In this document: positions 8,710-64,000 of the stretch, in pieces
How positions within the stretch are numbered: the first letter of the stretch is position 1
Layout: every line of letters begins with the position of its first letter
Source: Lingula anatina
Taxonomy: Eukaryota > Animalia > Brachiopoda
Length of the DNA stretch: 64,000 nt
Assembly (NCBI GenBank): GCA_051362555.1
Contig: CM120645.1
Span: forward strand, 5,270,001 to 5,334,000
Direction of reading: 5' to 3'
Made by a program: the position numbers and the translations under genes
The notes under the pieces: model-generated
What the model was told of the DNA's origin: nothing
Seen by the model: the letters and a program-made list of their open reading frames with translations, nothing else
Database searches by the model: none

Positions 8710-11700
8710 ATGGAGAGCTTGAGACGGCCGTTCGATCCTGTTGCACACGAGCTGGATGCAAATTTCCGGCTTACTAAATATGCTGACCTGAAAGGATGAG
8801 GGTGTAAAGTCCCCCAAGAAGTTCTGCTCAAACTTCTTGAGGGACTCCAACAGGACAGCAGTGCACAGGATGCTGAACAGTCTCACTTCCAGTATGTGGC
8901 TCAAGTCCCACGCGTTGGTAAGTCAACCACATGGTCCCTGGCCGAACGATCGGTCCCCAGGCGGGGAACCAGCGGAACGGTCCAGGGTCCGATTTTGCTA
9001 AAGACCATAATTAAAGGTCAATTTTGGGCCAGTTTCATCAATTTTGTCAGAAATGTGTAAAATAAATGCTTCTTCGGATTAGAATTGGATCTTTTTGCTG
9101 TTTTGGAGGGTGTATTGTCTGAAGGAAATTTTTCCTTTCTGAGCTCTCGAAGACAAAATGGCGCCGATTTGTTGATTACCGGCTTAATTCACCCACGTGG
9201 GTTGCCCACGTGGTTTGGGTCAAAGTACATTCTAGTGGCACGAGTTGTTGTATGCGAATAAACCAAAATATCTTTTTACAACCATGCTGCATGAATTGGT
9301 TAGAGAATTTAACGTTCATTATTTTAACTGGGAAGCTTATCTCTTGTCTGCCACAACAATGTGATTATCGAAAAGCATGGAACGCATTGAAATGAAGTAT
9401 AATATTTCAATCAAAACACCTTGAGCCTAAGAAATCCTTTGGGGGGGGGGGGGTGGAGAAGGTATTTTATTTCGTCAAAAAGGAGGAGAATATCACCCCT
9501 ATAAGTCTTTTAATTGGGTCAGAATTTTAATGAAGCAGAAATGTTTGCTTAAAAATAAACTAGGTTTAGTCTAAGCTATATCCTTCGTACTTCTGAATGA
9601 TGTTTTTATCATTTTATTTATGCAAGAGAACTCAGTTCAATTTTTATGTTTAAAAAATGATGACTGGCACTTTCTCAGTTCTTGTTGTCATGATTTCTTA
9701 TCTATTGCTCATATTGTCATTATTTCTTCTTTGTTTTGTAGGAATTGGGATGGATGCCTGCGTTACTCCACTGCGGCACGGTGGCCTGTCATTGGTCCAG
9801 ACAACTGATTTCTTTTATCCATTGGTTGATGACCCTTACATGATGGTAGAGTCTCATAGGACATCACAACCACCAGATGTTATCATGCTGATTAAGCACA
9901 GAGGATCATTTAAATTATAAAAAAAAAAAATCAATGTGTTTCCTAATTGATTTTCTGCAATTGTATTACCTTTTTATGATTTTCTCAATCATGCTCCTTC
10001 TTCCCCCACCTCTGCTCCACTTTTTAGAAAATATAAATAAACATTCATATCATTGATTGAATACTTTTCTAAAAATTAACAAACCAAGAATTTTTCATCA
10101 GTGAAGTAATGTAACATAAGTATGGTTCATTACTTTGTTGTGAGCCTTTCCTTCCTGTAAATGTAGCTGTATTTAACAATTATCCTGTGATTTGTAAGAT
10201 TAAACACCATTTCTATTTGACAATAAATCAAGTGATATGAAAAGTTTCCTTTGATTTACGCAAGCTTTGCTTATGAATAAGTTGAAATTTATATTTATAA
10301 CCTGAAGAAGTATTTTATCAACATAAAATAAAACAAAATAAGATTTTACATGAGAAGATTACATCATATGTTTAAGTTAATGAAAATGAATATCTATACA
10401 AGTAGGAAAATTGTGTTTTTTCAAGGTTTTCAGGTAAAATGCAAGTATAAGTATTTGAAAGTTGTTTTAATTGGTATCGTCAACTTTCCTCTTTTCCCAG
10501 GGCAGGATTGCTTGTGCTAATGTGTTGAGTGACCTGTACGCCATGGGAGTGACAGAATGTGACAACATGCTGGCGCTGCTGGCCGTTAGCAACAAGATGG
10601 GAGACAAGGAGAGAGATGTTGTGGTTCCACTGATGTTGACAGGGTTCAAGGTAGACAACTGGTTTTATGTTGTTTTTCAGGGTGCATGGGTCTGTTTCAC
10701 AAAAGAGCTCCAGCCAGGAAGTAGGTCTTTTGCAGCTACAGATGACTAGATGTTGACTTCTTTTGTTTACTGGAGAGGTTACTGTCAAATATGTTCTGTG
10801 ATGTTGATGCACATACAGAATATTTGTTCAGACTAAAAAGCTGTAAATAATTTGGCTACAAGAATTTATCGTTCAGTTTTCCTTACCACCGTTCTTGTTC
10901 ATATGTCTTTTAACAGGATTTTAGAAGTCTGTTTTATGCACACTGTATGTGTCTTCTGATATTTCAGGATCTGGCAGAAGAGGCAAACACACAGGTGACC
11001 GGTGGTCAGACAGTGATAAACCCATGGATGACCATTGGTGGAGTGGCTACCACTGTCTGCCAGCCTAATGAATTCATCATGTAAGTAAATGGTGAACTTA
11101 CAACTGCTGTCACATCTGTCACATTGATTGAGGTACTCGCAAATCGAGATTTGAAGCAGCATGTTAATTTCTACTTGTTAGTTGGCTTTGAATACAGATC
11201 TTATTAAGCAGTGAGTCCTAGATAGTTAGAAATGTTGGTCGAAACTCGAAAGAGTCAACTCATAGGCACTGGATACTATTTCTAGCTGTATGACCAAAGA
11301 TCAGGTGACCAGTCCATCCAGCTCGTTCACCTAGTGAAAGGTCGCAGGTTGAGACCACAATGTTGGTCAGTTGCTAAATGTAAGTTCCAGTATCAGAGTT
11401 GTTCATATTTATCATTGTTGTTGTACATATCGATGCGGTTATTTTAGGCCAGACAACGCTGTCATTGGTGATGTCCTAGTACTGACCAAGCCCCTAGGGA
11501 CCCAAGTGGCGGTCAATGCCTACCAGTGGCTTGACCAGCCCGAGAGATGGAACAGGATTAAGCTGGTGGTCAGCGAGGAGGACGTGAAGAAGGCTTACCA
11601 ACGTGCAATGTTCAGTATGGCCAGGCTAAACAGGACAGGTGAGCGATTGGAATTTAGGCAAGTGTAATTGAGTTCTAGGGTTGATTAGTACAGTAAGACG

Positions 11701-12643
11701 TTTTAGTTTGGATACTTGCACTGTCTTGTTTGGCCAAATTGAACGGTACAGGTGAGTTCAGTTGTAATCGAGACAGACATTTGACTGAGAATCGGATGTT
11801 ATTTTCTCTCACAGCTGCAAGACTAATGCACAAGTACAACGCGCATGGCGCCACGGATGTCACGGGATTCGGTCTCCTTGGGCACGCGAGCAACCTGGCA
11901 CGCATTCAGAAGAACGAGGTCGGGTTCGTCATACATAACCTTCCCATCATTGCCAAGATGGCGGCCGTCAGCAAGGCGTGCGGTAATATGTTTGGACTTT
12001 TGCAAGGACAGTCGGCTGAAACATCAGGTACGGACTTTTTTAAATAAATATTAACAAAATACAAATGCAGTTACACACGGATACTTATGTGACAAAAACA
12101 TGTACTTGAAAAGATATAAAATCTCCTGTACAGAATATTTTGATTGCGTTGTGCTTGGTGACCAAAAAGTCTTGGTACATTAATTTTGCAAAATTCATAT
12201 TTAATACTTTGAAATTTTAAGCAGGGTCGAACTTAAGTACACTGAGAGGTTGGTGAATCCTGTCATTTTTGTAGTAAAGACAAGAAATGCACTCGAAATA
12301 ATCTGCTCCCAGAGTTACTACGTACCTTGGGCTTTTTTCGTCCCAAATGTTCCCATATTCTGAGCTATTGAATGTTCCAATTTTAGTGGCATTTGACATT
12401 CTTTCCTTTGATTGAGTTATCTGCCTCGAATCATTTTTACCATTACTTCATGTTTCAGGTGGCTTGCTAATCACGTTACCCAGAGAGCAAGCGGCAGCAT
12501 TTTGTAAAGACATTGAAAAACAGGAAGGTTATCAGGCCTGGATCATAGGGATTGTCGAGAAAGGAAATCGTTCTGCAAGAATCATTGACAAGCCAAGAGT
12601 TATTGAAGTACCAGCGAAAGAAAAGGAGGGAGAGTTGTGGTAG
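8710..12643 (+). CDS. SEPHS2: Selenophosphate synthetase 2 (selenide, water dikinase), selenoprotein with Sec at codon 30; 387 aa, 7 exons
   Basis: Exons 8710-8917, 9742-9845, 10501-10650, 10968-11080, 11448-11638, 11815-12027, 12459-12643 (1164 nt). Exon 1 reads [32 protein letters not shown](8797-8799)-GCKVPQEVL; TGA lies at the Sec position of the KGUGCK motif. Also [49 protein letters not shown] and ETSGGLL motifs. A SECIS is present in the 3'UTR. Confidence 0.96.
8797..8846 (+). promoter_or_regulatory. UGA recoding cassette: TGA + GGGTGT hexanucleotide + SRE stem-loop
   Basis: After an 8-nt spacer, AGTCCC-C-CAAGAAGTT (8808-8823) pairs with AACTTCTTG-A-GGGACT (8831-8846): 15 Watson-Crick pairs, one C/A mismatch, 7-nt loop. 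Matches the Sec redefinition element known from metazoan SPS genes. Confidence 0.85.
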
Positions 12644-18992: not shown

Positions 18993-21900
18993 TGGTAATG
19001 AATGCATAATTCGCTGAAATTTTCAATTTTGACTAGCTGAATCATAGTTCTTAAAGGGATAATAACTCTTTGTTTCGGCCAAAAAATGAATTTTCCTGGA
19101 GTAAACAACAATTTTCCCATACTTACCAATGGTTAATGAATCCATTTTTACATTCAAAGTTACTCCCTGTTTTTTTTCTAAAAAGTTTGGTTTTTTGTTA
19201 AGATCTCTTAACAGATTTTAACAGAGTACAGCCATCAATGGAGGTCACGTGGTCTAAATACAAGCTCAGATATCAGAAAAAATAGCTATAACTGCCATTT
19301 TTGTGGTAAAACAGAATATATTATATTTCTATGAGTTATTCACAATGTTTTTATTGTTAAATATAGATCTCATACGAAGAGTTATTATCCCTTTAACTGT
19401 ACCAAAATGGAACCGTTCGCCTTCTAAAATACCAAAAATTTTCGGGGCCCTAAACCCCACGCCAAAGGGGGGGGGGGGGGGAGGATCGGGTTCGCATCGG
19501 CGGACCCCCCTTCAAATAATCCTGGATCCGCCCTTGGCATTAACATGAAAAGAATTTGTGTTAAAGAGTGTCATCTACCTAAGTAATATCAAAGGGGGTG
19601 AGGTTTTGTTGAAAAGTTTAGTCAAGTTTATTATTATTATCATAAAATGCCCTTTCAATGAATGCAGGGATGATACGTTTCCGGCTATATATCGGCGGAT
19701 TTCCGACTTCTTGGGAGCCAAACATATCACTGGCCTAGGCGGTCCCCTGAACCCCACTCCATATTATCCGACTTTTTCACTAAATGTCAGTCTTGTCCCT
19801 GGAAATGAGTATAAGCATCCCACTGAATAGCCTGCCTGACGCTATAGGCTGCTTTCACAACAGCGGAGTAGCTAGTTCGCGGATCAAATATGGCCGACTA
19901 ACTTGAATGCTCGTGGCGTAATCCCCGCGGGGAATATATGTTAGTGTCTATTAGGGGATTAGGCGGCAAGCTTTTAAGTGGGTCGCAATATTTGATCCGA
20001 GGACAATTAGTCCGCTGTTCTGAATGCGGCCTACACAACAATACCGTTCTTACCGTTCTCTATCCAAACCTAGGTAAAATCCTGAAGGCGCTTGACATGC
20101 CTGTGTTGGCGGAGACGTGGCTGAGGAAGGCGACACAAGTCAGTGACGGGAAGCACAGAGAGGCGGCCCTATTGTTCCAACAGATAAGAACCAAAAGGTT
20201 GTACGAGCCCCTCACCACAGGGTTGCCTATAGAGGTGTGAAGAGTGCGGTGTTTGATGTCTTTTCTAAATTGAGGGAATAACTCAAATAATTTTTTTTAA
20301 TATATTGATAATGAAGATGATGAAAAATGAAACAAAAATAAATATCCGTATAAATAGAATAATGAAAACAAAACAGAATAAGTAAATAAGCATACATAGT
20401 TTTGGAATTGTCTTACGATGAGAAATCGTAATCCGGTGACCTGTTCAATCATATCTCTATATTGTTTAATCAGACGCTGTTGTTTTGCAGCTCTTGTGAC
20501 CTCAAGCCAAAAGTGTACCAGTATTTTAGTTCATATGCTAATATAATTAGGCCCTACTTCTCCAGGTCAAATTTATATTAAGAATATGGCCGTGGTGTAT
20601 TTGCACAGGTATATTTATACGCTTATATCTTTTTTCTCCAGGTCAAATTTGAAGAATACGGCCGTGGTATTTTTGCCAAGGAAGACTTCAATGGTGGCCA
20701 AATGGTATGGCGGGAGGTTCCAATCATTTCCGCGCAGACGAGCATTTCCCTCAAAGCTCCCGCGTGCAGCCAGTGCGCGCGCTCTCTTCTGACCGCAATA
20801 GACTATTTCGGCGACGACGTGTTACGAAGTATGAAACCGGCGGAGAGGAGGGTGGTGGCCAAATACTGGCCCCAGGTGAGAAAAGAAACACCTGGCAGAC
20901 CATATCTGCTGAAAATATGTCACAATTTCGATTTAAGGATATTCTTCCATTTTTTTCCTGCACGTCAGCGGTACAATGAATATTTAAAAACGGAAAATAA
21001 ACATTCATGCAAAGGTTTCAATATTTTGGCCAAGATATTTTATACTTTTAAATTTTTTTGGTTATTAATGCATCTAAAAACCCTCCTTTATCTTTTGGCC
21101 TACTTCAGTCTTACCATATGTTATGTGTTTTATATGATTTTTGTATTTTTGTAGCCTTCTGCCTAAGCTTACATTTCTCATTGCAGGTCTCTATCATCGA
21201 ATGCCCCAAGTGTCAACGCGAGAAATACTGCAGAGAGGATTGCCTCAAAGCGGCCTGGTATCAACACCACCAAGTTCTCTGCTCGAAGAAGAACAAAGCC
21301 GCGGCGGAGCTCTATGATTTTTGCGATAAGGGCGAGTTGTGCACGGAGGGATACTGGAGCGCCCCTTTCAGTCCAATGTCCGTCGCCCGGATCTGGGCCG
21401 CGGTTATTGCGGACGTTCGGCGCGCCGTCAAACAGGCGAGGGAGGATGGAGCAGACACAGATGAACCCACGGTTGAGATGTGGGCACACGCTAAGGCACC
21501 TTACCGCCGCTTCATCGCATACGGCAAAGCGGGACACGCGGAATGGGCGCACAAGATGGTGGATCTCATGAATCGTGTTTTCAACAATTTCCCCGATGGA
21601 ATTAACTATAAGATAGACAATCGAGAGTTTGAGGGTCGATACTACCAAGTCGCCTGCAACTGCCAATCCTTTTCGGACCCACAGACGCCATATCGACGCT
21701 TCCTCTCCCGCATGAAAGTGGACTCCAACAGCAAGCACGTGGTCCCCTATATGGCCAGTATTGGTGAACCGAAAGAAGCAGTCTTCGGAGGACTTTTCGC
21801 TCTGCACGCTTGTCTAAACCACTCCTGCGACAACGACGTAGAGATCTTGGATTGCGATGTCGGAGGCTTCCCTGGAATCGGTGTCCGCGCCCGACGGAAA

Positions 21901-22296
21901 ATCGCAGCGGGACAGGAACTCTTCTCCACGTACATTGACACCAGGACCGCCAGGGCAGAGCGTAGGGCCTGGCTGTTCCGGGCGTATAATTTTTGGTGTC
22001 AATGTAGACGTTGTCAGTTTGAAGGGGACGGCCCTGAAGAATGCTCACACTGCGGGGTCAAGCCCGAACAGGGCAAGTATTTTCTCGGATGCGCAAACTG
22101 TAAGAGGGCATGGTACTGCACTCCGAAGTGTCAAAAGATCGCCTGGAAGAAAGGCCATAAAAGAATATGCAAGACGAAGCATTCTGACGTAGTCTCTTCA
22201 GTAGAGGAGCCCGTGAGAGAACAAATTAGGAAGTTAGCCGATTTGTTTTACAAGGAGATGCCAAAAAATTTATCTAAACCAAGTGAATCAAAGTGA
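18190..22296 (+). CDS. SET and MYND domain lysine methyltransferase (SMYD5-like core) with N-terminal TPR-like region and a second C-terminal MYND finger; 641 aa, 5 exons
   Basis: Exons 18190-18463, 18738-18884, 20074-20234, 20642-20875, 21187-22296 (1926 nt). Motifs: GRGIFAKEDF (SET N-part), CSQC...CPKCQREKYCREDC...HHQVLC (MYND), LNHSC, GQELFSTY, FWCQCRRC (post-SET), then CSHC...CANCKRAWYCTPKCQKIAWKKGHKRIC (second MYND). Confidence 0.92.
18925..18990. repeat. (TA)n microsatellite
   Basis: Uninterrupted AT dinucleotide run in SMYD intron 2. Confidence 0.95.
19847..20031. mobile_element. Foldback MITE with long imperfect TIRs, flanked by TA
   Basis: Left arm GGCTGCTTTCACAACAGCGGAGTAGCTAGTTCGCGGATCAAATATGGCCGAC versus reverse complement of the right arm GGCCGCATTCAGAACAGCGGACTAATTGTCCTCGGATCAAATATTGCGAC; TA on both sides. 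Confidence 0.75.
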
Positions 22297-30600: not shown

Positions 30601-33600
30601 ATGGTTCAAAGTTGCGTTATTTGGACTGATTCTGATTGAAACGGATTAAGTGGCGCGCACGACCATCTGAACCCTGTTATACTTCAGAAAAAAACCTCAA
30701 TTCTGTATACCACCGAAGTGAATGATGATCGATGTTCGTGGAATGTCTCTTTACTTATTCAGAGAAAAGGCGCAGTGTGACGACACGACAGACTTCATGG
30801 TGTTCCACCGTTACACAGACCAGAAAACCATTGGGCTGGTGGTTGCCGTATCCCAAGTTCTAGGTAATTACGTATTACGTCTTAAAACGTCCTTTACAAT
30901 GTCAGCTGCAAGCCTGAGCTTACCATCATAATACAAATACAACGCATTTCCAAACACGTGCGAAAATAAAAGCACCATGTGACACTCATTTTTTAGATTA
31001 AATCCCACACACACACACGCACGCACACACGCACGCACGCACGCACACACACACACACACACCGTTTAACTATGCTTGGAGCTATAAGTATATAGATGTA
31101 TCTTTCGAGGTCACAACGATAAAATAAAGCGTGTTTTATCCAAGTAGGCCTACGTATAAGTCACGTTTATGTATTCATGTACATTGATCAACTATAATTC
31201 AACATATTTGATACACCACAATACAACTTGTCTTTTAGATGTTCCATTAGAAGCTGTGCTGGAGCTTTTTGGCGAATATTTCTTCGAGTATTGCTTGGAC
31301 AACGGTTACGACAAAATGCTGCGAACGCTGGGAGAAGACCTCCCCAGTTTTATACAGAACCTAGACTCGCTGCATTCCCTATTAGCCATGTCTTACAAGA
31401 ACATAGAGGCGCCATCTTTCAGGTTTCGATTTTTTTGTTAGACGTTACGTTAAGCTTATCGTTAAACTTCTCTCGTGCACACCGTTATTGCTTTCATTAA
31501 CACTAGTTTATTAATCACGCGTTTCCCTATTATACGTGACGCTAGATATTACACTGTTACACAGATGGGTTGGTTTCAATAAGAGCCTTAGCATTTATAA
31601 GACACGCTTCATTTGGACATAAACGCCATGACACCCTCACGAGAGCAAGACATTTGAATACTCTTTTTAGCCAATACTTGTTTCTAGCCTGTATTTGTAT
31701 TTACATTTATCTTGTATACTTTTGGCATTACAGATGCGAAGCAAATTCAGGAGAGGACACTCTGATTCTTCACTATTATTCCCGTCGCAAGGGTCTCTAT
31801 CCTATCGTAATAGGTGAAACTATGCTAATTTTCATTATTTGAAGTATTTGCATTATCTTAAAGACAAATTCTCTCTCTCTCTCTCTCTCTCTCTCTTCTA
31901 AAGGGAACTTAGTAAACTGTTCCACACGTTTTTTTCTTGAAAGTTATGTATAAAATTACTTGGTCAGTTCTAGTATCTTATCAAATAATATATATATTTA
32001 TTGCCTTACAACCCAACCCATACACCCAATTATTTAAGCACACTTGAATAACCTTGACTTTAATTTCAGGTTTAGTACGAGCTGTTGGTAAACATCTCTT
32101 TAACTCTGATTGCACCCTCGAAGTCATAAGTAAAACGGACGACAATCCCATGGAAGAAAACAGCCAGGACCATGTGGTCTTCAGGGTGAAAGTAACGGAC
32201 CAAGCGGAGAAAGAAGACGAATCAAAATGCCGAGAATTGGCTCTTACTCAGAAAGAAAAATCACTCAGAAGTTTTGTTCCAAAATTCCCAAGACGCATAC
32301 ACATAGATCCGTCCAGTTTCTGTAAAGCCTTGCCTTACCACGTGGTTTTTGATGGCACCATGACCATATTACAGAGTGGAGTTCAAATGCAGAAAATTTG
32401 TCCAGATTTGATGAAACCAGGTGGTAAATTGCACGACTATTTTGAACTCGTGCATCCACGGATGCCCCTGACTTCTGAAAATATCATACGTTTTATAAAC
32501 GCAAATTTTATTTTACAAATAAAGGAAAGTATGTGCGGTGAGGTGACAAATGGAAAAGCGGTCGTTCCCTTGAGAAGTAAGGCTTTTCCTATTAAAGGTG
32601 AGTCGTATTACTTGATTTTAGGCCATACTTGATTTTAGAGTTTAGTTACTTATTTTTGGTAATGGTACATGTATGTCGACCTTGCTAGTATCGCGATCTG
32701 CTTGGAGTAATCGCCACGCGGCAATTTTATCAGAACGAATTGTTATTGGGTTTTGAAATTGGTAAAAAAATTGAAGTTTTTCGCCGTGCAAAAATGCACG
32801 ATATGCGCTTTTCCTCTTTGAATCTATTAGGGAAATAAGCATACATATCAAAGAATACCAAACAAAAGTGTATCAAAAACTCGTGCACAATTTACACAAT
32901 TATGTTGAAACTACAAATCCCAATTAAAAGGTCACGTGATTTCAGGTCAGATGATCCTCCTAGACCAGAGCGTTGGTCACATAATGTTCATCTGCTCTCC
33001 AAGGCTGACCAGCTTGACCGAGCTGATGGAACGCAACATCTTTTTATCGGACATCCCCCTGTATGACGTCACCAGGGAGTTGATACTGCTTAACCAACAG
33101 AGGATTGCCGAGATAGAAATTAGGTAAAGATGGGGGTGACCTTGAGGGGTAACTAGTCCACAAGTCACAATGGCTGCTGGTGTAGTTCGCGATTGACATT
33201 CGATCAAGTTTGCCTATATATTGAAGATATTACTACTAAATGTATCAATAATTTCAATACTACTAACTCAGTTGCCATATTATGAATAAACCCAGTGCAA
33301 TGCCTCTAAGATTTGTCATGTGAATCAAAATCATTTTCACAAATGTACAATTTCCTTTCATTTTTTCCTTGGCATTAAGGTTTAATTTATTTACATGCAT
33401 GTACAGTCTACACTGAACTGTGTATGGCAGAGGTGACAGAAGATAACCTCACGTACAGTAAAATGTAACTGCTTTATTTAATTTGGCACGCGTGCTCGTT
33501 TAAATGAAACCAAAATTACCAATAATTGAACCATGCCATATTGCAGTAAAAAACTTGACGAAACAACGGCAGAGTTAAAGCGCACGGCCACGGCTTTAAA

Positions 33601-36600
33601 CAGAGAGAAACAGAAGACAGACTCCTTGTTATACCAAATGTTGCCAAGGAAGGTAGCTGATCAACTTAGGGAAGGTAGAACCGTCGAGGCCGGTATGTCT
33701 CCATGTAAGATTTGTTGAGTTCGGTGTGACAGGAATGGTAGTCTTAGGGTGTATTCCCAGAGATTTAGATCGATCCAGAGATTAAGATTAAGATTAAGAT
33801 CGACCTAACTCCCTGGGGGTTCACGCTAAATTGCAGTCAGCCGAGCGCGCACCATGGTTAATTACCCCCTTACAGCTTTCAGTAGGCGGGACAGACGCTT
33901 AAGCCGGCTAAGCTGACAGTAATCTAGTGAGACTCCCCACAGGGATAGATCGATCTAAAATCTATGGAAATGGGGTCTTAGGAATGGAAGTCCGGGGCCC
34001 CATATGATTAGTACAGGTTAGGCTCAGTCGGTACCTTGGGGTTAGTGTATGGTATTAATGTCAACTGTACAAAATAATGGGGGAAGGACTACGGCTCCTA
34101 GCGGACTACCATTCCCGTCACACCTGCACATCTTACTGTAAGAGATGAATTGTGCATAGGTCCTTGTGGCTCTTAAAGTCATTAGTCTCTTCAGACCTGT
34201 TACTTTTAGACTAGACCGGAACTTTTTTGTTCTAAACATACAGACCCTAAATTTGGTCTACATTATTTCAAGACAAATGGTTTGCTTAAATAAAGTAAGT
34301 ATTAGCACTAGATATTTGCCACATCTTTCTTGTCGCTTGTTCAGTAATATGAATTGCCTTCTTAATGGATATTTAATTGGCAACCACACAAGATAAATGA
34401 AAGGTTATTTAGTTGTTTTTTCTCATATCAATTCAGAAAAGTTCAGCGAAGTCACAATCCTGTTTAGTGATATCGTCACTTTCACAAACATTGCTGCTGC
34501 GTGTGCACCCATCAGTATAGTGGAAATGTTGAATGAGCTGTACTCGCGGTTTGATGCGTTGACCAGCAAACACGGCGTGTACAAGGTCAGTTGTCAAACG
34601 ACCAACACTATTAGGAAATCAATTTGCAAGTTTATCAGTGCTGGTCTCATTTTCTGAATACCCACAGAAGTATATTTTTAAAAATTGGTAGCAATCATTG
34701 CAATTATTATTCTTAATGTTCAGAACAATTTTAGAGCTTAAGATATTTTAGGAAACCCACCCCTGGGGATTACTATTAACAAAAAATGTTTATTTGCTTT
34801 ACTTTGATGGTAGGTGGAAACGATTGGTGACGCGTACATGGTGGTGGCCGGAGTGCCGGACTCTGTTCCTGACCATGCTGAGAGGATAGCCAACATGGCT
34901 CTAGATATGGTGGAGGCTGCTGGGGAGGTGATCAGCCCGGCCACTGGACGACCATTGCAGGTAGGAAAGGCTCTTGTGGGCGGGGAAAAGAGAGAGGGAG
35001 AGAGAGAGAGACGTGCCATGCGCCCTTCTTTATGTGGCGAATATGCCAGTTGTTTTCAGAAGTATCCCTGAAATTGATGCTTTGTATCAATATTACTAGT
35101 GACAGTCTTACTATTTTACTAATTTTACAAGGACATTTTCGTGCAAGTATTTTTCCGTTTTCTTCATCTGTGGAATTAGCGTTGGAGCATCCGATAATTG
35201 ACCCGATATATAGCTTGGGCAAATAAAAAAGACTTATTGTTCGTGTGTACAGTATGCTATTGTATGTTATAAATACACAGTGCACTACATAAAAATCATT
35301 AAATGGTGACGGCTCCGGTCCGTCTTTCCTCTAAAATGGACATAAAGGTCAACTCTGAGCCCAGAAAGTCATGACGACTGCTTTATGCGACTAAATTTGA
35401 GTGTCCAACACTCCAGTAACACTTAGGGCTCAGTCCCATTGAAACTGTCGGTCTACACGGATCGATCCAACTCCGAGGGATCCTCGCTGAAAGCAAAAGA
35501 TTTACTCGCCTACTCCTGGCGTTGGGTAGAATGCAGAAAAGCTGGTGATTATACGAATACGTTGGAAACAAGAGAAGGCGTAGACAAACAGTTTCAATGG
35601 GAATGGGTTCTAAGTTTGAGGTCAAGTCTACATATATGGTTATGAGAGAAGGGGTGGCAGGGTATGCCGTAGCGCATATGATGGAATACAATTTTGTGTA
35701 CAGTCCTGAGAAGAGTCCTTTTTTGCTTAGAAACAAACCCTTTTATGCTAAAAATGCACACTTTTCGTCCAAAGTAACAAGAATCCTTTTTTTTTCAAAC
35801 AACGGCTGAATGCAGAGTAATTTTCACTGCAACACTTCAGTGTCCACAATTGAGACACCTCCATATATTTCATTTTTCGAATTCACATAATTGGTTGATA
35901 TTTTATATTAATTACATATTGTCACGAAATAATGATCCTGTCACACATTTTGTTTTAGATTCGCGTGGGCATGCATTTGGGTGGGGTAGTGGCAGGCGTG
36001 GTTGGGAAGAAGATGCCAAGGTACTGTCTGTTTGGAGACACGGTCAACACGGCATCACGGATGGAGAGCCACGGGGTCCCCGGGAAAATACACGTCAGCC
36101 CTTCTGCTAGAGAGTAAATATTGTCTTTGAATATTAAGGATATGATAAGATTATGGTTAAACATAAGTTGTTTTTAAAGAGGCGTCATCATAGAAGGCTG
36201 TTCACATGGCTGGAATTTCGTTGTCATCGTTGGAGTCACTTTGATGAAGGTCCAAACGTCAGGCCTCGGGTTAAAAAAAACACGACCAGTCTCTTTAAAA
36301 ACGATTTACTTGTGTACCATCACTATACTAGAGGTTATAATCAAACTATATCATCAAAGATAAAATTGACTTTTTCATTCAAATTCCCTTAACGTAATAA
36401 CTATTATTATGCCAATTAAGCATCAGGTGAAAAAACTGACATGACCTTCAAATTAGGCCTACTACCACAAAAATATCTCCAAACTGAGAATGGATTGCAT
36501 TTGCTATATAAAAAAATTGACATTTAATCCAGATACAGTGACTCGAGATTTATTGGGTCAATTTTGCGTGTTTTTTTACGTATGATGCCAGGCGAGATAA

Positions 36601-36901
36601 TATTTTACATTACGTTTTCAGAAACCTTGACAACAAACCGTACATTTTCGAAGAACGCGGTCTCATAGAAATAAAAGGCAAGGGCGAAATGGTTACGTTT
36701 TTCCTCATTGGTCGAAATGGCGAGGTCCGCCTGGAGTTGATGAAGGATAACAACACGACGGTTCGGGGAGGAACGCTGGACACTAATTTGGCAGAACCGA
36801 ATGCCTCATTGAAATGGGTGGACTCACATCGCATGTCCAGTGACCAAAATGATCGGACAGGTTCGCGTCAAAACGAGAGCACTACGTGCATGATTATCTG
36901 A
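27629..36901 (+). CDS. Soluble guanylate cyclase, beta-2-like (H-NOX, PAS/HNOBA, coiled coil, cyclase) with C-terminal CaaX; 674 aa, 12 coding exons
   Basis: Exons 27629-27631 (ATG|gtacgt, inferred), 28005-28078, 30763-30863, 31239-31422, 31734-31813, 32070-32597, 32946-33123, 33547-33692, 34437-34585, 34814-34960, 35959-36113, 36622-36901 (2025 nt). [22 protein letters not shown] start; heme His in NLDSLH; YxSxR (HYYSRR); [11 protein letters not shown]; [12 protein letters not shown]; [19 protein letters not shown]; IKGKG; ends CMII-stop. Confidence 0.94.
33722..34126. mobile_element. MITE family B (TIR CGGTGTGACAGGAATGGTAGTC), interrupted by a nested insertion; sGC intron 8
   Basis: Left TIR at 33722, right end GACTACCATTCCCGTCACACCTG at 34126. 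After removing 33747-33980 it is collinear with the copy at 41423-41594. Confidence 0.85.
33747..33977. mobile_element. PIF/Harbinger (Tourist-like) MITE with TTA target-site duplication, nested in MITE B
   Basis: TTA|GGGTGTATTCCCAGAGATTTAGATCGATC ... GATCGATCTAAAATCTATGGAAATGGGGTC|TTA. Confidence 0.8.
35426..35610. mobile_element. Harbinger/Tourist-like MITE in sGC intron 10
   Basis: TTA|GGGCTCAGTCCCATTGAAACTGTCGGTCTAC ... GTAGACAAACAGTTTCAATGGGAATGGGTTC|TAA; 15-bp perfect inverted core TCCCATTGAAACTGT. Confidence 0.8.
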
Positions 36902-38455: not shown

Positions 38456-39329
38456 TTAATACTTCTTGCCGTAGTAGTAAGGTGCGTAGAGTGGAGCCTT
38501 GTAAACGGGATGGACGACAGCGGCAGCTGCAGCAGCAGCAGCAGCACGGGCAGCTGCGGCGGCATCGGCCTTAGCGGCAGCTTGGGCAGCGGCAGCACGT
38601 TGAGCGGCGGCAGCACGGGCGGCAGCAGCAGCCTGAGCAGCAGCGGCAGCACGAGCGGCAGCGGCAGCACGAGCGGCAGCGGCAGCACGGGCGGCAGCGG
38701 CGGCATCAGCAGCACGTTGAGCAGCGGCGGCACGGGCGGCAGCGGCGGCTCTGAAATTAACAAAACCTTATTACTAGTGACGTTATACAAACTGCATGCA
38801 ATGCTCACTACCTTCCTGGTAAATATTGCCAAATTTGTGTCTTTTGAGAGTTTGTGAATTTCTTAGATAATTACTGTTGGCTATAAGTGTTAAATCACAC
38901 ACTTGAGAAACCAATTCACCTCCTAAAACGATCTAAAGAGAGAAAGACGCATCCTTTAAGGAGTAGGCCTATTTTCCTCTTATTTTACACAAAGGTCTCC
39001 CCATATGTTACTTTTTTGACAAACACTTTAGAAACAAAATACAAAAAAATCTGTGATAACCTGTGATAATATTCGACTGATTAAAGTTAACTTATCTGTA
39101 TATTACCAAATTTGGTCTTGATCACATCCATCCAATCAAACGAATCAATACTGATGCCTTGGTTGGAGAGTCTTAATCAGACTTCTATTATTACAACAAC
39201 CATGATGAATTAGAACCGAAGACCAAAAAAAAGGTTAAAAATACCCACTTACCCGTAATAGCCGTATGGGGCTTTTACGAAGGCATGTGCAGCCACAAGG
39301 CAAAGAGCGAGAACGACTAATTTCATCAT
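38456..39329 (-). CDS. Small secreted alanine-rich repetitive protein (123 aa), unknown family
   Basis: Exon 39329-39253 MMKLVVLALCLVAAHA-FVKAPYGYYG (signal peptide; GG|gtaagt donor) splices to exon 38750-38456 (tttcag acceptor): AAAAARAAAAQRAADAAAAARAAAAARAAAAARAAAAAQAAAAARAAAAQRAAAAQAAAKADAAAAARAAAAAAAAAVVHPVYKAPLYAPYYYGKKY-stop. 372 nt in frame, TATA box upstream. Confidence 0.88.
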
Positions 39330-44824: not shown

Positions 44825-46481
44825 CGGTCTCTTGCATTCTATGTTGAACCCTTTCCCCCAAGTAAAATACAGATAACAGGCCTTTTCATATAATAATGCA
44901 CATTAGTTTAAAACAAATCCCAACTAGAGCTCAATACATTTATACCATTTATTTAATTCAGCAAATCTTCTGATAATCAATAATGCTGATAATGTTATAG
45001 CCCAAATAATCTAACAATCCAAATCTCACTGCTTATTGGCACTACAATGATGAATCTTTGTTGCATTTTGATTATACAATGCTATCTGAAATGCTGATAA
45101 CAGTGCTTTGCAATAACAAAATTTAATGCTCTTATGTTGAACGTAGCAGTTCTTACAATGCTGTACGGTACTGTGTGTTGTACAATATATTACCTTTTTC
45201 TTCTGTCAATAATACAATAACTGATTATTCTACCTTTAAAAATCAAGTTTTAAAATCCGTACATTGTTAAAAGGCATTTTTTCATATGCTATACAGTAAG
45301 TACAACTTCATATTTCAGTGTAAAATGAACAAATCAACTACCAACCAAAAAAGAAAACTGTCAGAAATACTGTAATATGCTTGGACAGTACCTTTTATAC
45401 GGCAATACAAAATAATCTATCATAATTCATCATAAAAAAAAATGGAGCCAGGTTTAGCCACAGCAATGAGCTACTCTCAAGTAATACTTTCATGTGGTAA
45501 AGCTTTCATGATTCAGCTAATACTTATAAATACAAGAAGAATGATGCCCTGGCCCTGGGTTTAAATAATACTGTGTATCTCAAGTGAATCAAATAGTTCT
45601 TTTTCCTCATAAAATCTGGCAATCAATACAAGCATTGGTCACATATTAAGTAACAATAGAGCAGTGAAAGAAAATGTCACCACCTTTCTGTAAAGTTTTT
45701 CTGGTAATAATAACCATCATTAACACCCTTAAACACTGCCAACCTTTATGTAAGATTTAACAGACAATATACTGTATCACCTCATTTTTATTGTCAACAA
45801 TATAACATATGTACTATGATCATAGTTTTTATAATCAAAATATGTAATTTGACAGTACAAATGCCTTTGGCAGTAAATGGTTATGATATATTATTATATA
45901 TAGAAGTTGGAATGAGATCTAAAGTGACAAATTATTAGACTTAGTGTTGATTTTTCTACAAATTAGTAGCATTTATATATAAACTTATTCTGTTGTCTTT
46001 TTAAAAAGTCGCTTTGGTATCTAAGAAAAAGGTTGTGCTTAGTAAAACATGCTGAATGGAAATGAAAAACAGAAAAGGCTTTTAACAGTTAATCTTACAA
46101 ACAAAGCTAAGTAAAGCAATACAAATATTCATTTATTAGGATATGAAGCTAAAAGGATTCATAAAATACTAGACAAAAACTAAGAAACAGTTATTTTCTA
46201 CCTATTACCAAAGCAACCATTCCCAAAAATTAAAAAATGCACCTAACTCATGTCTCTACAGCAGCACCTTCATCATAACTTCTTCAGATTGAAAATAATT
46301 TTTTCTTCATCAAAGTAATCAAGTTCACTTAAACTAAATTTTGAAATAAAATTTTAGAAGCAGGGATACTTAAATTAAAACAATCATATCTTTGTAGCAT
46401 GAAAAAACATTTCCCTATTATTTATTTCATTTTAAATAATCCAACTTCAGTAAAACTGACTGGTTGCTTTAATACTTTCCA

Positions 46482-46565
46482 CTACTTCCACCAGGCCCTC
46501 TTGTTGTTACATGGAGACTTCATGAACTTATCTGACTTCATATACTGCTGAATAGCAGGCAGGGC
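46482..46565 (-). CDS. Alternative (distal) terminal coding exon 8b of the mu-class GST; gives a 216-aa isoform
   Basis: Acceptor TCTCTTTTTATAG|GCC, phase 0; encodes ALPAIQQYMKSDKFMKSPCNNKRAWWK-stop. AATAAA on the minus strand at 46426-46421. Confidence 0.85.
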   Translation of the reverse strand, partial: ALPAIQQYMKSDKFMKSPCNNKRAWWK

Positions 46566-46934
46566 CTATAAAAAGAGACACCCAAAAAATAAGTTTGTCT
46601 AAATGACACATAGAGATACAAACCCCCGGTATGGAGATCTGTGTTGTCAGTGTCTGTTCCCCTAACAATAAGGACTGGTGGAATAAAGATACATATTACA
46701 CAAAATCTATTCCATCAACTATTCCATCAACTTGCTTCTAGCGGCACAGTTTGTATCTTTCCTGTGTGTGTTTGTGTGTGTGCGCAATATTCATGGGAAT
46801 GAGCCCTATCAATATAACCCAACTGATTTCTAGAAGAACAAATACTAACAATTTTTACTGAAATACTAACATTTTAAAAGAATGATTTTAACAATTACAT
46901 TTAAATTTGAGAAATATTCAAGTAATGTAGAGTC

Positions 46935-48334
46935 TCATGCAGAGGCAGTGCCGCCCCATCCAGCCATCTTATTGTTGACTGGCAACTTCTTGAACTCCTC
47001 AGAGGAGATGTACTTGGCTACTGGTTCCAGGGCCTAGAAATTGCACATGGCACAAATAAAAATTAAACATTATGACAAACAAACAAACAAACAAACAAAC
47101 AAACAAACACACCTGCACACAAATGAAAAAGGAAGCAAACAAACAGGATTGATTTTCCAAAGCTAAATTACGCATACATTCAGATTGCTGAACTGATAAA
47201 TTAATTTTCCCATAATCACAAGCTTTCTCCCACCTCTTCCCTCCAGCATATGATTACAAGTTTAATACCCATGTTAATTAAATCTGTTGGGTGAAGATGT
47301 GGGTTCTTTTTTGCCAAAAAGAGTACCATTTTACAACAAAACCCACTATACCTCAGCACTGGCATTAGAACCAGCTCAAATTTCAATTTAGAACAGAACT
47401 TTTCATGACAAAAATAGTTTTTTCTTTTGGACCTCTCCACCTTCCCCCCCCCCCCCCCCCCTCACACCACCACCACCACCAGCCCATCCTACCAGGGGGA
47501 CTGAATAAATACTTGACATCCATGACACATGCATCTGATATAAAGAAGTATATAAAATATTGACACTCTCACCTCGAACCTCTTCATGAATGCGGTCAGT
47601 TTTGGATAGGCATCCAGACAACCTGGTGCGAAGAGCCTGTGCTGGTCCAACAACTCATACATGGGGAAGTCTGCAAATGTGAGCTGAAATAATAATAATA
47701 TGTTTATTTGAAAACTTGCAATCCAAAGTGTGAAGTTGTACAGATAAATGAACTTGAATAAAAATTATTATAAAAAGTGGTTATAAAATAAAAAAGATAT
47801 TTACATGAAAAATTAATAGTTTAAAATCTGTATGCCTTTGGTTGAAGTATGGACAAAATGTGCAATTGTAAATATCACAATGTTGCCCCATAAGAAAAAC
47901 ATGATACAAGAAGCAAATACAGCTTAAATGTGGTAAATTCTTTAGAGGAGTGGTAGACAGCAGGTTTTTCATCATAATGTAATTATCATTTGTAGTAGAA
48001 AAGAAGTCCTGAGCATATTATCATGATAGCTTTAAAAGGTGTAACGGATATGCATTTTGCAAATACATAAAGACTAAAATCTCCTTTGCGATTGTTATCT
48101 GTCCTAAATCTTAGTTCTTGTTTTTAGCCATTGGCCAGGCATGATCATGATGGTCATTTCATACCGCAATCTCTTTAGTACCTTACTTGGTATGAGCGGA
48201 GCACCAGTTATACTAAAACTGCCATTCTACTCACATTTGCTCCAGCAAACCACTGGTTGTCTCCAAGAAATTCTTCAAACTGCTTCAGTGTTCCTGGCAA
48301 GGCACTCAAGTAGGCCTCTTTCACAGCTTCATCC

Positions 48335-48375
<41 letters not shown>

Positions 48376-51300
48376 GTGTAGTTGATGTAATATACATTTT
48401 TCTGTAAGGAATAGCCAGAGAATGGAGAACTCCATTTACAAGCAATTTGCTGCATTTTCTTTTCAATTCCATTTGCAGTAGTATGGTTATGTGACCGAAA
48501 CAAAAAGGAAGAGCTTTTGGATCTTCGGTCTATCTAATCAACAGCATGCTGACTACTTACAAACTTGCCATAGCAGAGGCGCACAAATCCATTTCTGAAG
48601 TCCATGGACTGGTTTTCCATGATGTCGGCCCTTATTCTCTCCTCTTCAGTGGTGCCACCTGTATAACACCTTTATATTATTGTTATTGTTCCATTACCAC
48701 TAATTTACAAGTTACTTTACAGAGCAAGTTATTAAATTCTCTTACCACAATTTTATAATTTGAAATTTTGAGTATGTTACATCTTCAAAAGAATGACAAA
48801 GTAAGCTCTAATCTGCATCAGTTCTAATTACAACATTTAAACCTTTATAAGGGAGAATTAACTAAAATAATTAGTTTCTTAAAGCATCATTGTCCGTCTA
48901 ATGCATTCTCCTTCGCCTGTATTTTTTGTCATAATCATAATGAACTGACTGTCAACAAGAACTATCAGCCTGTTTGAAATAAGTTTGAAAAGTTTTTGGT
49001 CAATTTCACAAAAGAACTTTGAAACTCTGTGTAAAGGTGTAGTTTTGGGGTTTAATTCAGTTTTAACGTTTTTGGTAAAAACTGTATGATAGAAAACTCA
49101 CAGAGATTGTGTTTCCGTCCAATGTATCTCAGAATGGCATTGCTCTGCACAACCTTACGATCCCCATCGATCAGGTATGGGAGCTGTAACCAGGGCAACA
49201 TGGTGAAGAAAGGACACGTTCACAAGTGGACCAACTTATACCAGAAACTATCAAACTGATGTCACCAGATGACTGGACAACAGAATTTGGCATCAAAAAC
49301 CAAAAGGTCTTGTAGAAGTTATGATAATAACTATAAATGCATTTTGGTTCCAAATTGACATCAAAGATTCCAGACACACTTTAATTTGGTTTTACTTGTG
49401 AAAGCACCCATACAGGATAGTTCATATCAAAGTGGATGGCATTGTATCCTCTGGATTCATGCTATGGTGTTGAATGATTCTTCAAAAGGTAATTTAAAAT
49501 CTTTTTAATTAGAATTTAAAAATTATCAATGACATTGCAATTTGAAGTGTAGAGAAATGACATAAGTGTCCCATTTCTAGCTAAATGCATTTAAAAACCT
49601 TTTGTCTATTGAAATACTGATCTTAGACTATAAGTTAAGTCCAGAGGTGTAGAGATTATTAGATTTTAATAATGAACTGATAATGTTAGACTTTGTCTAC
49701 TTACATTTGGGTATGGCAGTCCCAGTGTGTGCTTGACACTTGTCCATGCTTCTCGGTTGAAATCAGGTGCTGAAAAATGCAAAAATATTTTCTTTCAAGG
49801 TTACCATATAGCCAATAGGTTTCTAGTCTGTATAAGGCCAAACTTTGCTTTTGCCAGCAAGAAAAATTCAGAGTCAAATAGATTTTAGCTTACTGTAATA
49901 TGTTGTTATCAAAATTACTGGAACATTGAAAAAAATCCTCTTTCCATGCTGTATTCTAACATTGTTAAAAATTGATTTTGTTGAGAATTCTGTGCAGCTT
50001 GTTAAACTGATTTTTGGTAATGTTAAAAAATTATACTATTTAAGCCAAATCTAAATATATATATATGTTTATATTTACCAGGGCCACACTCATACTTTCT
50101 GTCTTCAAACTCCTCTCCAACATAGTTGAGTAGCAAACGTATGGGCTGTGCTAACTGAAATTAGATCAAATATAGTGAACATTCAAGACCCCCATAAGAT
50201 ATCTTTCTTCCACTTGGATATGCCTTAAGTTTGTAAAAATTGCCAGTCATAAACAATTATCAAAATGACACTATCTTAAGTATACTGGTATCTGCACCTT
50301 AAGGTTAAAAAAAGTTTATCATGGGGATATAGTTACACTTGCAGCTGCTCCACTTGATAATAATGGAGATAGCAAGTTCAACCATGATAGCATGTTTTTT
50401 GTCAACTTGACATTTTTTACCTTTAACAGATCAATAGGATTTTATATAAAAAGACTTTATGAGATACTGGTGTTTATGAGCCCTCATATGGTTAAATAGT
50501 TCATTCCTGTACATTCTATTATCAGTATAAATACAATGCCATAAGAGTGCTAATAATAATCACCCCCTATCACATCTACTATATTTATTTTCACATTTAA
50601 TGTAGTTTTGCTTTAATAAATATTAAAACCTTAAATAGGGGTGTCAATGCTGGTAATGCAGTTTATTGTCAATAGTCAATTTTTTTCTGTAAAACAGAGG
50701 ACAAAGAAGTAAGGGTCGAGGGAGTACTTGGGGGGGGGGGGGGGGAGGCACTGAACAAGTATGCACTTCCCCTCCCCTTCTTGACTCAGTGTAATATGAT
50801 ATGAGGCAGAACTCTGCCCACACTTACTGTATCATTAGCAAAGGATGGCCTTACAGTTACAGTAAAGCCAAGTTGATCTGGGACTAGTTTAGTTATAAAA
50901 TGTATAGTGTTGTAATGTATTAAACTCTCCTTAGGTGTGGTAGAACAGTTCTGCTTTTCAAATTCAAATAAACTGAAATTTGTTGCTTATTGGGATTAAT
51001 TCCTAGTTGGATACTGGTTTTCAAATGCATTTACTGCATATGCTTTGGAAGATACAATGTATCAGTTTAATTCTACCAGTATTTCCCATATTGCATGCAT
51101 CTGTGACCAAAAATTCTTTCACTTTGCCTGTTTCACATGAACCTTAAGTGTAATTGGGAAAATCCTAGAATCAAATTTTAAACTGTGTAGGCTATTAATA
51201 CTTGGCTCCTTTACTTTAAATGTGACAAATTTTAAGTATTTGAAGAGGCGAAAATCAAGTTGGGCAACTTTTGACTCATTTTTTGAAGTGTCCCCTGAAA

Positions 51301-51704
51301 TAAAAGACAGGCATGGTGTCACTAAAACATGCTAAAGAAGACAGATCGTAAAACTGCTTATTCATACTCAGATATGTAGCTGTGTGTAATATTTCAAGTG
51401 TCCAGTTTAATAAGAAAAAAATCATATGTGGGGATCCTATGGTCTGAGGTTTGTCTATACAATATAAATAATCGGTTTGCGAAGTTATTTGCAAAGGTTC
51501 AACTTGAGTCCCACATGTAACGTGACCGTTGTTGTTGAAACTGGATCTGTTCACTGAACTTCAGGTGTTAAAACTAACTTGGTAAAACTATACACGTGTA
51601 CATGTAAAAAGTCTACTCCTGTCTAGTACTTTTATGTACACGTACTGTACTACTACTACTGCTCTTACCCCTCGAATCGACCAATAGCCAAGAACAATCG
51701 GCAT
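46935..51704 (-). CDS. Glutathione S-transferase, mu class; 221 aa with proximal last exon 8a
   Basis: Exons 51704-51669, 50154-50079, 49769-49705, 49183-49102, 48658-48561, 48333-48235, 47683-47573, 47033-46935. [21 protein letters not shown] (catalytic Tyr), mu-loop [59 protein letters not shown]; 8-exon layout typical of mu GSTs. Confidence 0.96.
48335..48374. repeat. (TAA)n microsatellite abutting the GST exon 6 acceptor
   Basis: On the minus strand (TTA)n runs directly into the AG of the acceptor. Confidence 0.9.
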
Positions 51705-57626: not shown

Positions 57627-63912
<6,286 letters not shown>

Positions 63913-64000
63913 GTAGGTTGTACTTTATGAAGTATATTAACTAATTAGGTCCACCAGACCGAACTTTAAGCATCGCCCTGAATTCTAATAGCCTATCTGC

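What the first reader, a model, noticed from the sequence alone, without database searches (positions are those of the whole stretch)
46482..47033. Mu-class GST with two intact duplicated last exons: a splice-encoded C-terminal specificity switch
Seen: after exon 7 (..MKRFE, phase 0) there are two homologous stop-containing exons, each with a good acceptor starting GCC CTG: 8a [32 protein letters not shown] and 8b ALPAIQQYMKSDKFMKSPCNNKRAWWK. Both keep the AL..(V/I)..Y..S..F...P.NNK.A.W pattern despite heavy nucleotide divergence, which suggests selection on both. 8b has a canonical AATAAA; 8a only a variant AGTAAA near 46859-46854. Established: the mu-GST C-terminus lines the hydrophobic substrate (H) site; alternative 3' exons diversify some mosquito delta GSTs, whereas mu GSTs usually diversify by whole-gene duplication. 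Inference: one gene gives two enzymes with different substrate ranges, and 8b adds a Cys near the H-site.
Basis: partly seen in the sequence, partly recalled or inferred. Interest (0 to 1): 0.75.

Follow-up and report, generated by a model that had tools for sequence, protein, structure and literature searches.

The report
Detox enzyme with two swappable tails
A brachiopod glutathione S-transferase gene splices in either of two old duplicate copies of its last coding exon, in proportions that differ sharply between RNA samples, giving two protein forms already listed in RefSeq that likely differ only modestly in what they detoxify.

Summary
A minus-strand mu-class GST has seven shared exons (189 aa) and two homologous last coding exons, 8a and 8b (12 of 27 aa identical; flanks no longer align). 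RNA reads join exon 7 to both: 38:3 and 42:8 (8a:8b) in two runs of one study, 0:3 and 0:7 in two runs of another. Both proteins are already RefSeq isoforms X1/X2 of Lingula anatina GST Mu 3, from a different haplotype, so mis-assembly is very unlikely. 8a is a stop-bearing cassette and 8b is the shared last exon: 8a transcripts splice or run into 8b as 3' UTR, and the proposed AGTAAA is read through. The 'specificity switch' is only partly supported. The best-documented H-site positions (209, 210) are Asn-Asn in both tails; differences fall at 208, 212 and 214. 8a varies at conserved positions between haplotypes (3 of 32 aa versus 0 of 189 in the core). Verdict: a real new case of a known class (tandem-exon C-terminal substitution). 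Function is untested, and tissue regulation cannot be told from genotype or library effects.

The parts
51669..51704 (-). exon 1 coding part (ATG, catalytic Tyr7)
   Evidence: junction to exon 2 in 138/13/19/12 reads of X1/X4/X7/X9
50079..50154 (-). exon 2
49705..49769 (-). exon 3
49102..49183 (-). exon 4
48561..48658 (-). exon 5
   Evidence: exon 4-5 junction (the exon 5-6 junction is not among the rows shown)
48235..48333 (-). exon 6
   Evidence: junction to exon 7 in 73/11/17/22 reads
47573..47683 (-). exon 7, last shared coding exon, phase-0 donor
46935..47033 (-). exon 8a coding part (32 aa + TGA): stop-bearing cassette
   Evidence: exon 7->8a junction 38/42/0/0 in X1/X2/X4/X5, 5 and 10 in X7/X9; RefSeq isoform X1, 221 aa
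46899..46934 (-). 36-nt untranslated end of exon 8a up to its GT donor
   Evidence: 8a->8b junction 11/10/1/0; distance
46566..46898 (-). 333-nt GT-AG intron in the 3' UTR of the 8a form; removed or kept, apparently by allele at the donor
   Evidence: of unspliced reads over 46898, 43 of 48 (X1) and 32 of 38 (X2) carry a donor-destroying letter; depth 25-60x at 46595-46704 in X1/X2 versus 0-4x in X4/X5
46482..46565 (-). exon 8b coding part (27 aa + TAG): shared last exon, coding when 8a is skipped, UTR when 8a is included
   Evidence: exon 7->8b junction 3/8/3/7; RefSeq isoform X2, 216 aa
46421..46426 (-). AATAAA, likely the main poly(A) signal shared by both forms
   Evidence: X1 depth falls from 69 at 46429 to 14 at 46390; no poly(A) tail was among the loose ends shown

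Best explanation
This mu-class GST gene carries an old tandem duplicate of its last coding exon, and RNA reads show exon 7 spliced to either copy, giving two predicted enzymes that likely differ by fine tuning at the rim of the substrate pocket rather than by a full switch of specificity. Shown: exon 8a is a stop-bearing cassette. When it is included, the reading frame ends in 8a and 8b becomes 3' UTR, reached by removing a 333-nt intron or, inferred from coverage, by keeping it where an allele has lost the donor. When 8a is skipped, 8b supplies the last 27 residues. Inferred: both forms use the poly(A) signal behind 8b; the 8a stop lies only 36 nt before the last junction, so it should escape nonsense-mediated decay (50-55 nt rule, recalled); the choice is likely regulated by tissue or stage, since 8a goes from about 88% of junction reads in one study to 0 of 10 in another. 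The copies diverged in opposite halves: 8b kept the ancestral-type helix (190-203) and changed the distal loop (Cys208, Arg212, Trp214); 8a kept the distal loop and changed the helix. Both keep Asn209-Asn210, so any difference in substrates would come from the neighbours of the pocket, stability or tail mobility.
For: Junction counts; intron between exon 7 and 8a nearly empty (0.4-1.3x in X1), so the coverage is mature RNA. Both proteins in RefSeq, X1 under two accessions, as two UTR forms would give. Core identical to RefSeq at 189 of 189 aa. Exons conserved while flanks are not, dN/dS about 0.29 by NG86 on 27 codons. Half-by-half profile scores against 127 homologues and identities to the Lingula paralog P0044: 8a 7/14 and 10/13, 8b 10/14 and 7/13. 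Both AlphaFold models keep the helix at 192-198/199. Position 214 is listed as a positively selected mu-class site in the substrate pocket and 192 as another selected site (PMC2955027 Table 5); both differ between the tails.
Against: No protein-level or enzyme data. Positions 209/210 are identical in both tails. 8a differs between window and RefSeq at 3 of 32 aa, two of them at positions with weighted conservation 0.85 and 0.96, and the RefSeq 8a helix half scores below all 127 homologues. The ratio difference rests on 2 versus 2 samples from different studies and library types, with genotype, tissue and protocol confounded; reads are not independent replicates. The exon 7->8b junction lies near the 3' end and may be under-counted. 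No single read bridges the retained intron (repeat skipped at 46756-46790; loose ends at 46708). pLDDT beyond residue 210 is low in both models (57, 62). No orthologue from another brachiopod was found.
Confidence: 0.55

Rival explanations
1. 8a is a duplicate under relaxed selection: still spliced, often as the main form, but drifting toward a less stable or redundant enzyme, with no selected difference in function.
For: 3 of 32 aa differ between window and RefSeq 8a versus 0 of 189 in the core (Fisher p=0.003); Leu191 and Tyr197 are replaced in the RefSeq allele; Pfam GST_C_3 score 68.9 for X1 versus 79.6 for X2; the UTR donor and the AGTAAA are polymorphic.
Against: 8a versus 8b (3/32 vs 1/27) is not significant (p=0.62). 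8a is the major form in X1 and X2. No stop or indel in 27 aligned codons although flanks have lost all similarity and pS is about twice pN. The distal half of 8a is closer to the family than that of 8b. Fast change can also mean diversifying selection.
Confidence: 0.25
2. The splice ratio is set by genotype (populations or lineages under one species label) or by library protocol, not by tissue or stage, so each animal makes mostly one form.
For: Runs differ from the window and from each other at many sites, including fixed-looking ones; the contrast follows the study exactly (P1 high, P2 none); P2 library selection is 'unspecified'. An allele already controls the UTR intron.
Against: X4 has one 8a->8b junction read and about 1x depth on 8a, so 8a is present and usable there. 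X7 and X9 look intermediate (5 and 10 8a junctions against 17 and 22 exon 6-7 junctions). X1 and X2 make both forms.
Confidence: 0.3
3. 8a and 8b are independent last exons chosen by alternative polyadenylation, 8a ending at the AGTAAA.
For: AGTAAA is present in the window 76 nt after the 8a stop; depth falls along the 8a UTR; 29 loose-end rows were not shown, so a minor proximal site is not excluded.
Against: 22 reads splice 8a directly to 8b; reads cross the AGTAAA and carry another letter there (35 of 35, 29 of 32); coverage resumes upstream of 8b only in runs that use 8a; no pile-up of ends listed.
Confidence: 0.08
4. 8b (or 8a) is a remnant of a separate or mis-assembled paralog.
For: None beyond the general habit of mu GSTs to duplicate; the whole genome could not be searched.
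Against: Direct junctions from exon 7 to both exons and from 8a to 8b; both forms in RefSeq on one 429,996-base contig from another haplotype; no other GST exon in the window (tblastn).
Confidence: 0.02

Closest known systems
Lingula anatina glutathione S-transferase Mu 3, RefSeq isoforms X1 (XP_013400618.1, XP_013400619.1; 221 aa) and X2 (XP_013400620.1; 216 aa)
   Same: The same gene: core identical at 189 of 189 aa, X1 ends in 8a and X2 in 8b.
   Different: The window is another haplotype (3 aa differences in 8a, 1 in 8b). RefSeq is an automated listing; no paper on this event turned up.
Tandem exon duplication-derived C-terminal substitutions (77 of 236 human events, PMC8373072; passages read)
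   Same: Homologous 3' coding exons used alternatively to swap a C-terminal segment.
   Different: That paper attributes homologous C-terminal swaps to alternative poly(A) use; here the reads show a stop-bearing cassette with a shared last exon. 'glutathione' and 'GSTM' occur 0 times in its main text.
Anopheles delta-class GST gene adgst1AS1 (four splice variants differing in permethrin binding; passage in review PMC1964917) and Drosophila GSTD11, Z2, T3, O2 (PMC4195677, passages and section 9)
   Same: One GST gene gives several enzymes by alternative exons.
   Different: Other classes. In the mosquito gene and GSTO2 most of the protein is swapped (mosquito detail recalled; GSTO2 forms share only exon 1), here only the last 27-32 aa. 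Functional differences were measured there, not here.
Branchiostoma mu-class GST isoforms X1/X2/X3
   Same: Mu-class GST with annotated alternative homologous exons.
   Different: They swap the first few N-terminal residues, not the last exon; one B. lanceolatum pair differs by 2 aa in the last exon (unverified).
Human GSTM3/GSTM1/GSTM2 structures (3gtu_B, 1xw6, 2c4j)
   Same: Closest solved relatives by sequence (E 2e-87 to 3gtu_B) and fold (TM 0.95-0.97); GSTM3 has the same Asn-Asn pair.
   Different: Mammalian mu specificity is spread over separate genes and varies at residue 210, which is fixed between 8a and 8b.

Membership tests
Cytosolic GST, mu class | GST_N and GST_C domains above curated cut-offs | tested here: met
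   both isoforms
Cytosolic GST, mu class | Catalytic Tyr near the N-terminus and G-site residues | tested here: met
   Y7, W8, W46, K50, N59, L60, P61, Q72, S73 invariant in 52 aligned sequences; role of these residues recalled
Cytosolic GST, mu class | Mu loop and closest sequence/fold match to mu-class structures | tested here: met
   Ungapped alignment to human M3, camel M1 and human M1; top Foldseek hits for the 8b model are mu class; the term 'mu loop' is recalled
Cytosolic GST, mu class | Glutathione-conjugating activity as a dimer | not testable with these tools
   needs purified protein
Tandem exon duplication-derived C-terminal substitution | Adjacent exons homologous to each other | tested here: met
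   12 of 27 aa, 48 of 81 nt, beyond all shuffles
Tandem exon duplication-derived C-terminal substitution | Each exon spliced in frame to the same upstream exon | tested here: met
   both junctions within X1 and within X2
Tandem exon duplication-derived C-terminal substitution | Choice made by alternative poly(A) use (the route described in PMC8373072; usual, not needed for the protein-level class) | tested here: not met
   8a splices or runs into 8b; AGTAAA read through; a minor proximal site is not excluded
Tandem exon duplication-derived C-terminal substitution | Both exons conserved in related species | tested here: inconclusive
   no brachiopod orthologue; pN<pS between the copies
Tandem exon duplication-derived C-terminal substitution | Both proteins detected | not testable with these tools
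   no proteomics tool
Anopheles-type variable-exon GST | Alternative exons replace most of the substrate-binding C-terminal domain | tested here: not met
   189 residues including helices 4-7 are shared; the mosquito layout is recalled
Anopheles-type variable-exon GST | Isoforms differ in measured substrate or inhibitor binding | not testable with these tools
   needs assays

The most novel reading that the evidence does not exclude
A mu-class GST whose substrate-pocket lid is swapped by a tissue- or stage-controlled, nearly all-or-none splice switch between two duplicate exons that diverged in complementary halves, with the 8b lid (Cys208, Arg212, Trp214; each at weighted frequency 0.00 among 127 homologues) giving a distinct substrate range or a redox-sensitive pocket, and with X1/X2 heterodimers as a third species.
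Probability: 0.25. Interest if true: 0.6.

Novelty: new member of a known kind. Interest (0 to 1): 0.38.

Why it matters
If the two tails differ in kinetics, the pair is a natural experiment: 189 identical residues and one swapped 27-32-residue segment that leaves the known specificity residue 210 unchanged, so it tests directly what the rest of the mu-class C-terminus contributes. It would also show a mu GST diversifying by last-exon duplication; among 278 mu-GST sequences screened, this was the only pair with a near-identical core and a strongly different tail. The class of event is well known and the isoforms are already in RefSeq, which limits the surprise.

Tried and rejected
No whole genome is held, so paralogs and a second exon 7 could not be searched genome-wide. 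The run search listed no indexed RNA holder, only 9 raw-read runs by species label; 6 of 9 were laid (X1 and X4 twice), at about 6% of each P1/P2 run and 25-30% of each P3 run. In one search the exon 7->8b junction was not among the 15 rows shown (40 hidden; poly-C/G artefacts filled the table), so P3 has no direct 8b count. RNA editing as the source of the Tyr197Cys difference was considered and rejected: the RefSeq protein has the same Cys. A search with the 8a tail region returned only the gene's own cluster (1 of 1 candidate), a weak search. AlphaFold models of X1 and X2 did not discriminate (mean pLDDT 91.1 and 92.4); the X1 model uses the RefSeq allele, and no contact analysis was possible, so whether Cys208 faces the pocket is untested. 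Acceptor pyrimidine content (13/20 vs 15/20) does not explain the choice. Literature searches found no paper on this event among the listings shown; the library lacks most subscription journals. One search gave nothing usable on Lingula diversity. Three look-ups of earlier scan findings returned nothing. No complex prediction was run. No supplements were read.

Full report
Observation. They share 12 of 27 residues and 48 of 81 bases without gaps; no shuffle reaches this, and 150 bases on either side do not align. No other GST exon lies in the window (tblastn). No whole genome was available.

Identity. Exon 7 hits Lingula anatina GST Mu 3 isoform X2 at 97%. Its cluster has 2 members: X2 (216 aa, 8b tail) and X1 (221 aa, 8a tail, two accessions). 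The shared 189 residues match the window exactly; the tails differ at 3 positions in 8a (L191Q, Y197C, G214R, window to RefSeq) and 1 in 8b (Q195E). So the window is another haplotype of this brachiopod gene, and both forms are already in automated annotation. Pfam, PDB sequence search and Foldseek place it in the mu class.

Splicing. Six of nine listed raw RNA runs were laid. In one search the exon 7->8a junction has 38, 42, 0, 0 reads and exon 7->8b has 3, 8, 3, 7 reads in X1, X2 (study P1) and X4, X5 (study P2); X4 and X5 each add 4 short-overhang reads at the 8b acceptor. 8a inclusion is 0.88 (95% interval 0.79-0.94) in P1 and 0 of 10 (upper bound 0.31) in P2; Fisher p is 1.8e-8 on pooled reads, but this is two samples against two, with study, protocol and genotype confounded. 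X7 and X9 (P3) have 5 and 10 8a junctions against 17 and 22 exon 6-7 junctions; their 8b junction was not among the rows shown.

A third junction changes the layout. A GT donor 36 nt after the 8a stop splices to the 8b acceptor in 11, 10, 1, 0 reads. Most unspliced reads over that donor carry a letter that destroys it (43 of 48, 32 of 38). Coverage just upstream of 8b is 25-60x in P1 and 0-4x in P2, while most of the intron before 8a is nearly empty. I infer that 8a transcripts continue into 8b, spliced or not depending on allele; no single read bridges the retained intron because of a repeat and an allelic difference near 46708. The AGTAAA is crossed by reads and altered in 35 of 35 and 29 of 32 of them. 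Depth falls just past the AATAAA at 46426, but no poly(A) tail was among the loose ends shown (29 rows hidden). 8a is therefore a stop-bearing cassette and 8b the shared last exon. Escape from nonsense-mediated decay follows from the recalled 50-55 nt rule and was not tested.

Selection. Between 8a and 8b, pS is 0.66 and pN 0.35 (dN/dS about 0.29; only 15.7 synonymous sites; pN>=pS in 1.3% of bootstraps), which fits long retention of both. Against a weighted profile of 127 homologues (effective number 23), 8b is ordinary in residues 190-203 and unusual in 204-216 (1 of 127 scores lower); 8a is the reverse (3 of 127 lower in the first half for the window allele, 0 of 127 for the RefSeq allele). 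Among the 20 coding read variants shown and classed, 2 of 4 in 8a, 1 of 5 in 8b and 1 of 11 in the core change a residue; many rows were hidden. An 8b stop variant stays a stop. 8a thus changes faster than the core (3 of 32 versus 0 of 189, p=0.003) but not significantly faster than 8b (p=0.62); relaxed and diversifying selection cannot be told apart.

Function. Query numbering matches human M1 with Met in this region. Phe208 and Ser209 of human M1 (209 and 210 here) are named as contacts at the H-site (PMC8998827, passages), and residue 210 is the site with a thousand-fold specificity effect in GSTM2 (PMC6306238, passages). Both tails have Asn-Asn there. Mammalian mu sites under positive selection include 192, 210, 214 (substrate pocket) and 218 (PMC2955027, passages and section 7); 192 and 214 differ between the tails, and 8b has Cys208, Arg212 and Trp214, each at weighted frequency 0.00. 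Both models keep the final helix and both are uncertain after residue 210. Tuning is therefore plausible and a sharp switch is unproven.

Comparison. Homologous C-terminal swaps from tandem exon duplication are an established class (77 human cases; PMC8373072, passages), there ascribed to alternative poly(A). Alternative splicing of GSTs is known in mosquitoes (PMC1964917, passage) and Drosophila (PMC4195677, passages and section 9). Amphioxus mu GSTs are annotated with alternative N-termini. Of 286 held proteins of 190 aa or more, 278 could be split at the last exon; 7 pairs had a near-identical core and at least 2 tail differences, and only this gene had more than 2 (17); clusters were listed only in part (at most 15 members each). 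Ten literature searches showed no paper on this event in their listings; other papers were seen as listings only.

Verdict. Real, expressed and variable between samples; architecture corrected; functional switch untested. New member of a known kind; interest 0.38.

Noticed in passing
proteins P0097, P0163-P0175: Branchiostoma mu-class GSTs are annotated with two or three alternative homologous N-terminal starts in several species, which looks like duplicated first exons; one B. lanceolatum pair (CAH1245287.1/CAH1245288.1) differs only by 2 residues in the last exon, possibly a young duplicate last exon.
   Followed up: partly
window 45600-46400, minus strand: Stranded reads continue well past the AATAAA at 46426 (24x at 45600-45810 in X1, running off the laid stretch): a longer 3' UTR form or another transcript; further AATAAA at 46137, 45792, 44953, 44548.
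   Followed up: no
window 46898: The GT donor of the UTR intron is polymorphic; one allele appears to force intron retention, giving 8a UTRs of about 176 versus 509 nt up to the AATAAA.
   Followed up: partly
window 47637: Run X4 shows a residue-changing variant in exon 7 (Arg168 to Met) in 10 of 11 reads, absent from X1, X2, X5.
   Followed up: no
window 47444-47463 and 50728-50748: Poly-C and poly-G runs in introns attract many unstranded artefact reads and false joints.
   Followed up: yes
window 38456-38767, minus strand: Frame of alanine-rich repeats with regularly spaced Arg/Gln ending in a Pro/Tyr/Lys-rich tail; resembles a secreted structural or shell-matrix protein (recalled, not tested).
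   Followed up: no
window 4671-5264, 10471-12047, 20582-22296, 31160-36901, 61726-63944: Neighbouring genes look, from memory of their motifs and untested, like an ING-type PHD protein, selenophosphate synthetase, a SET/MYND protein with one long exon, a soluble guanylate cyclase subunit and a C-type lectin domain protein.
   Followed up: no
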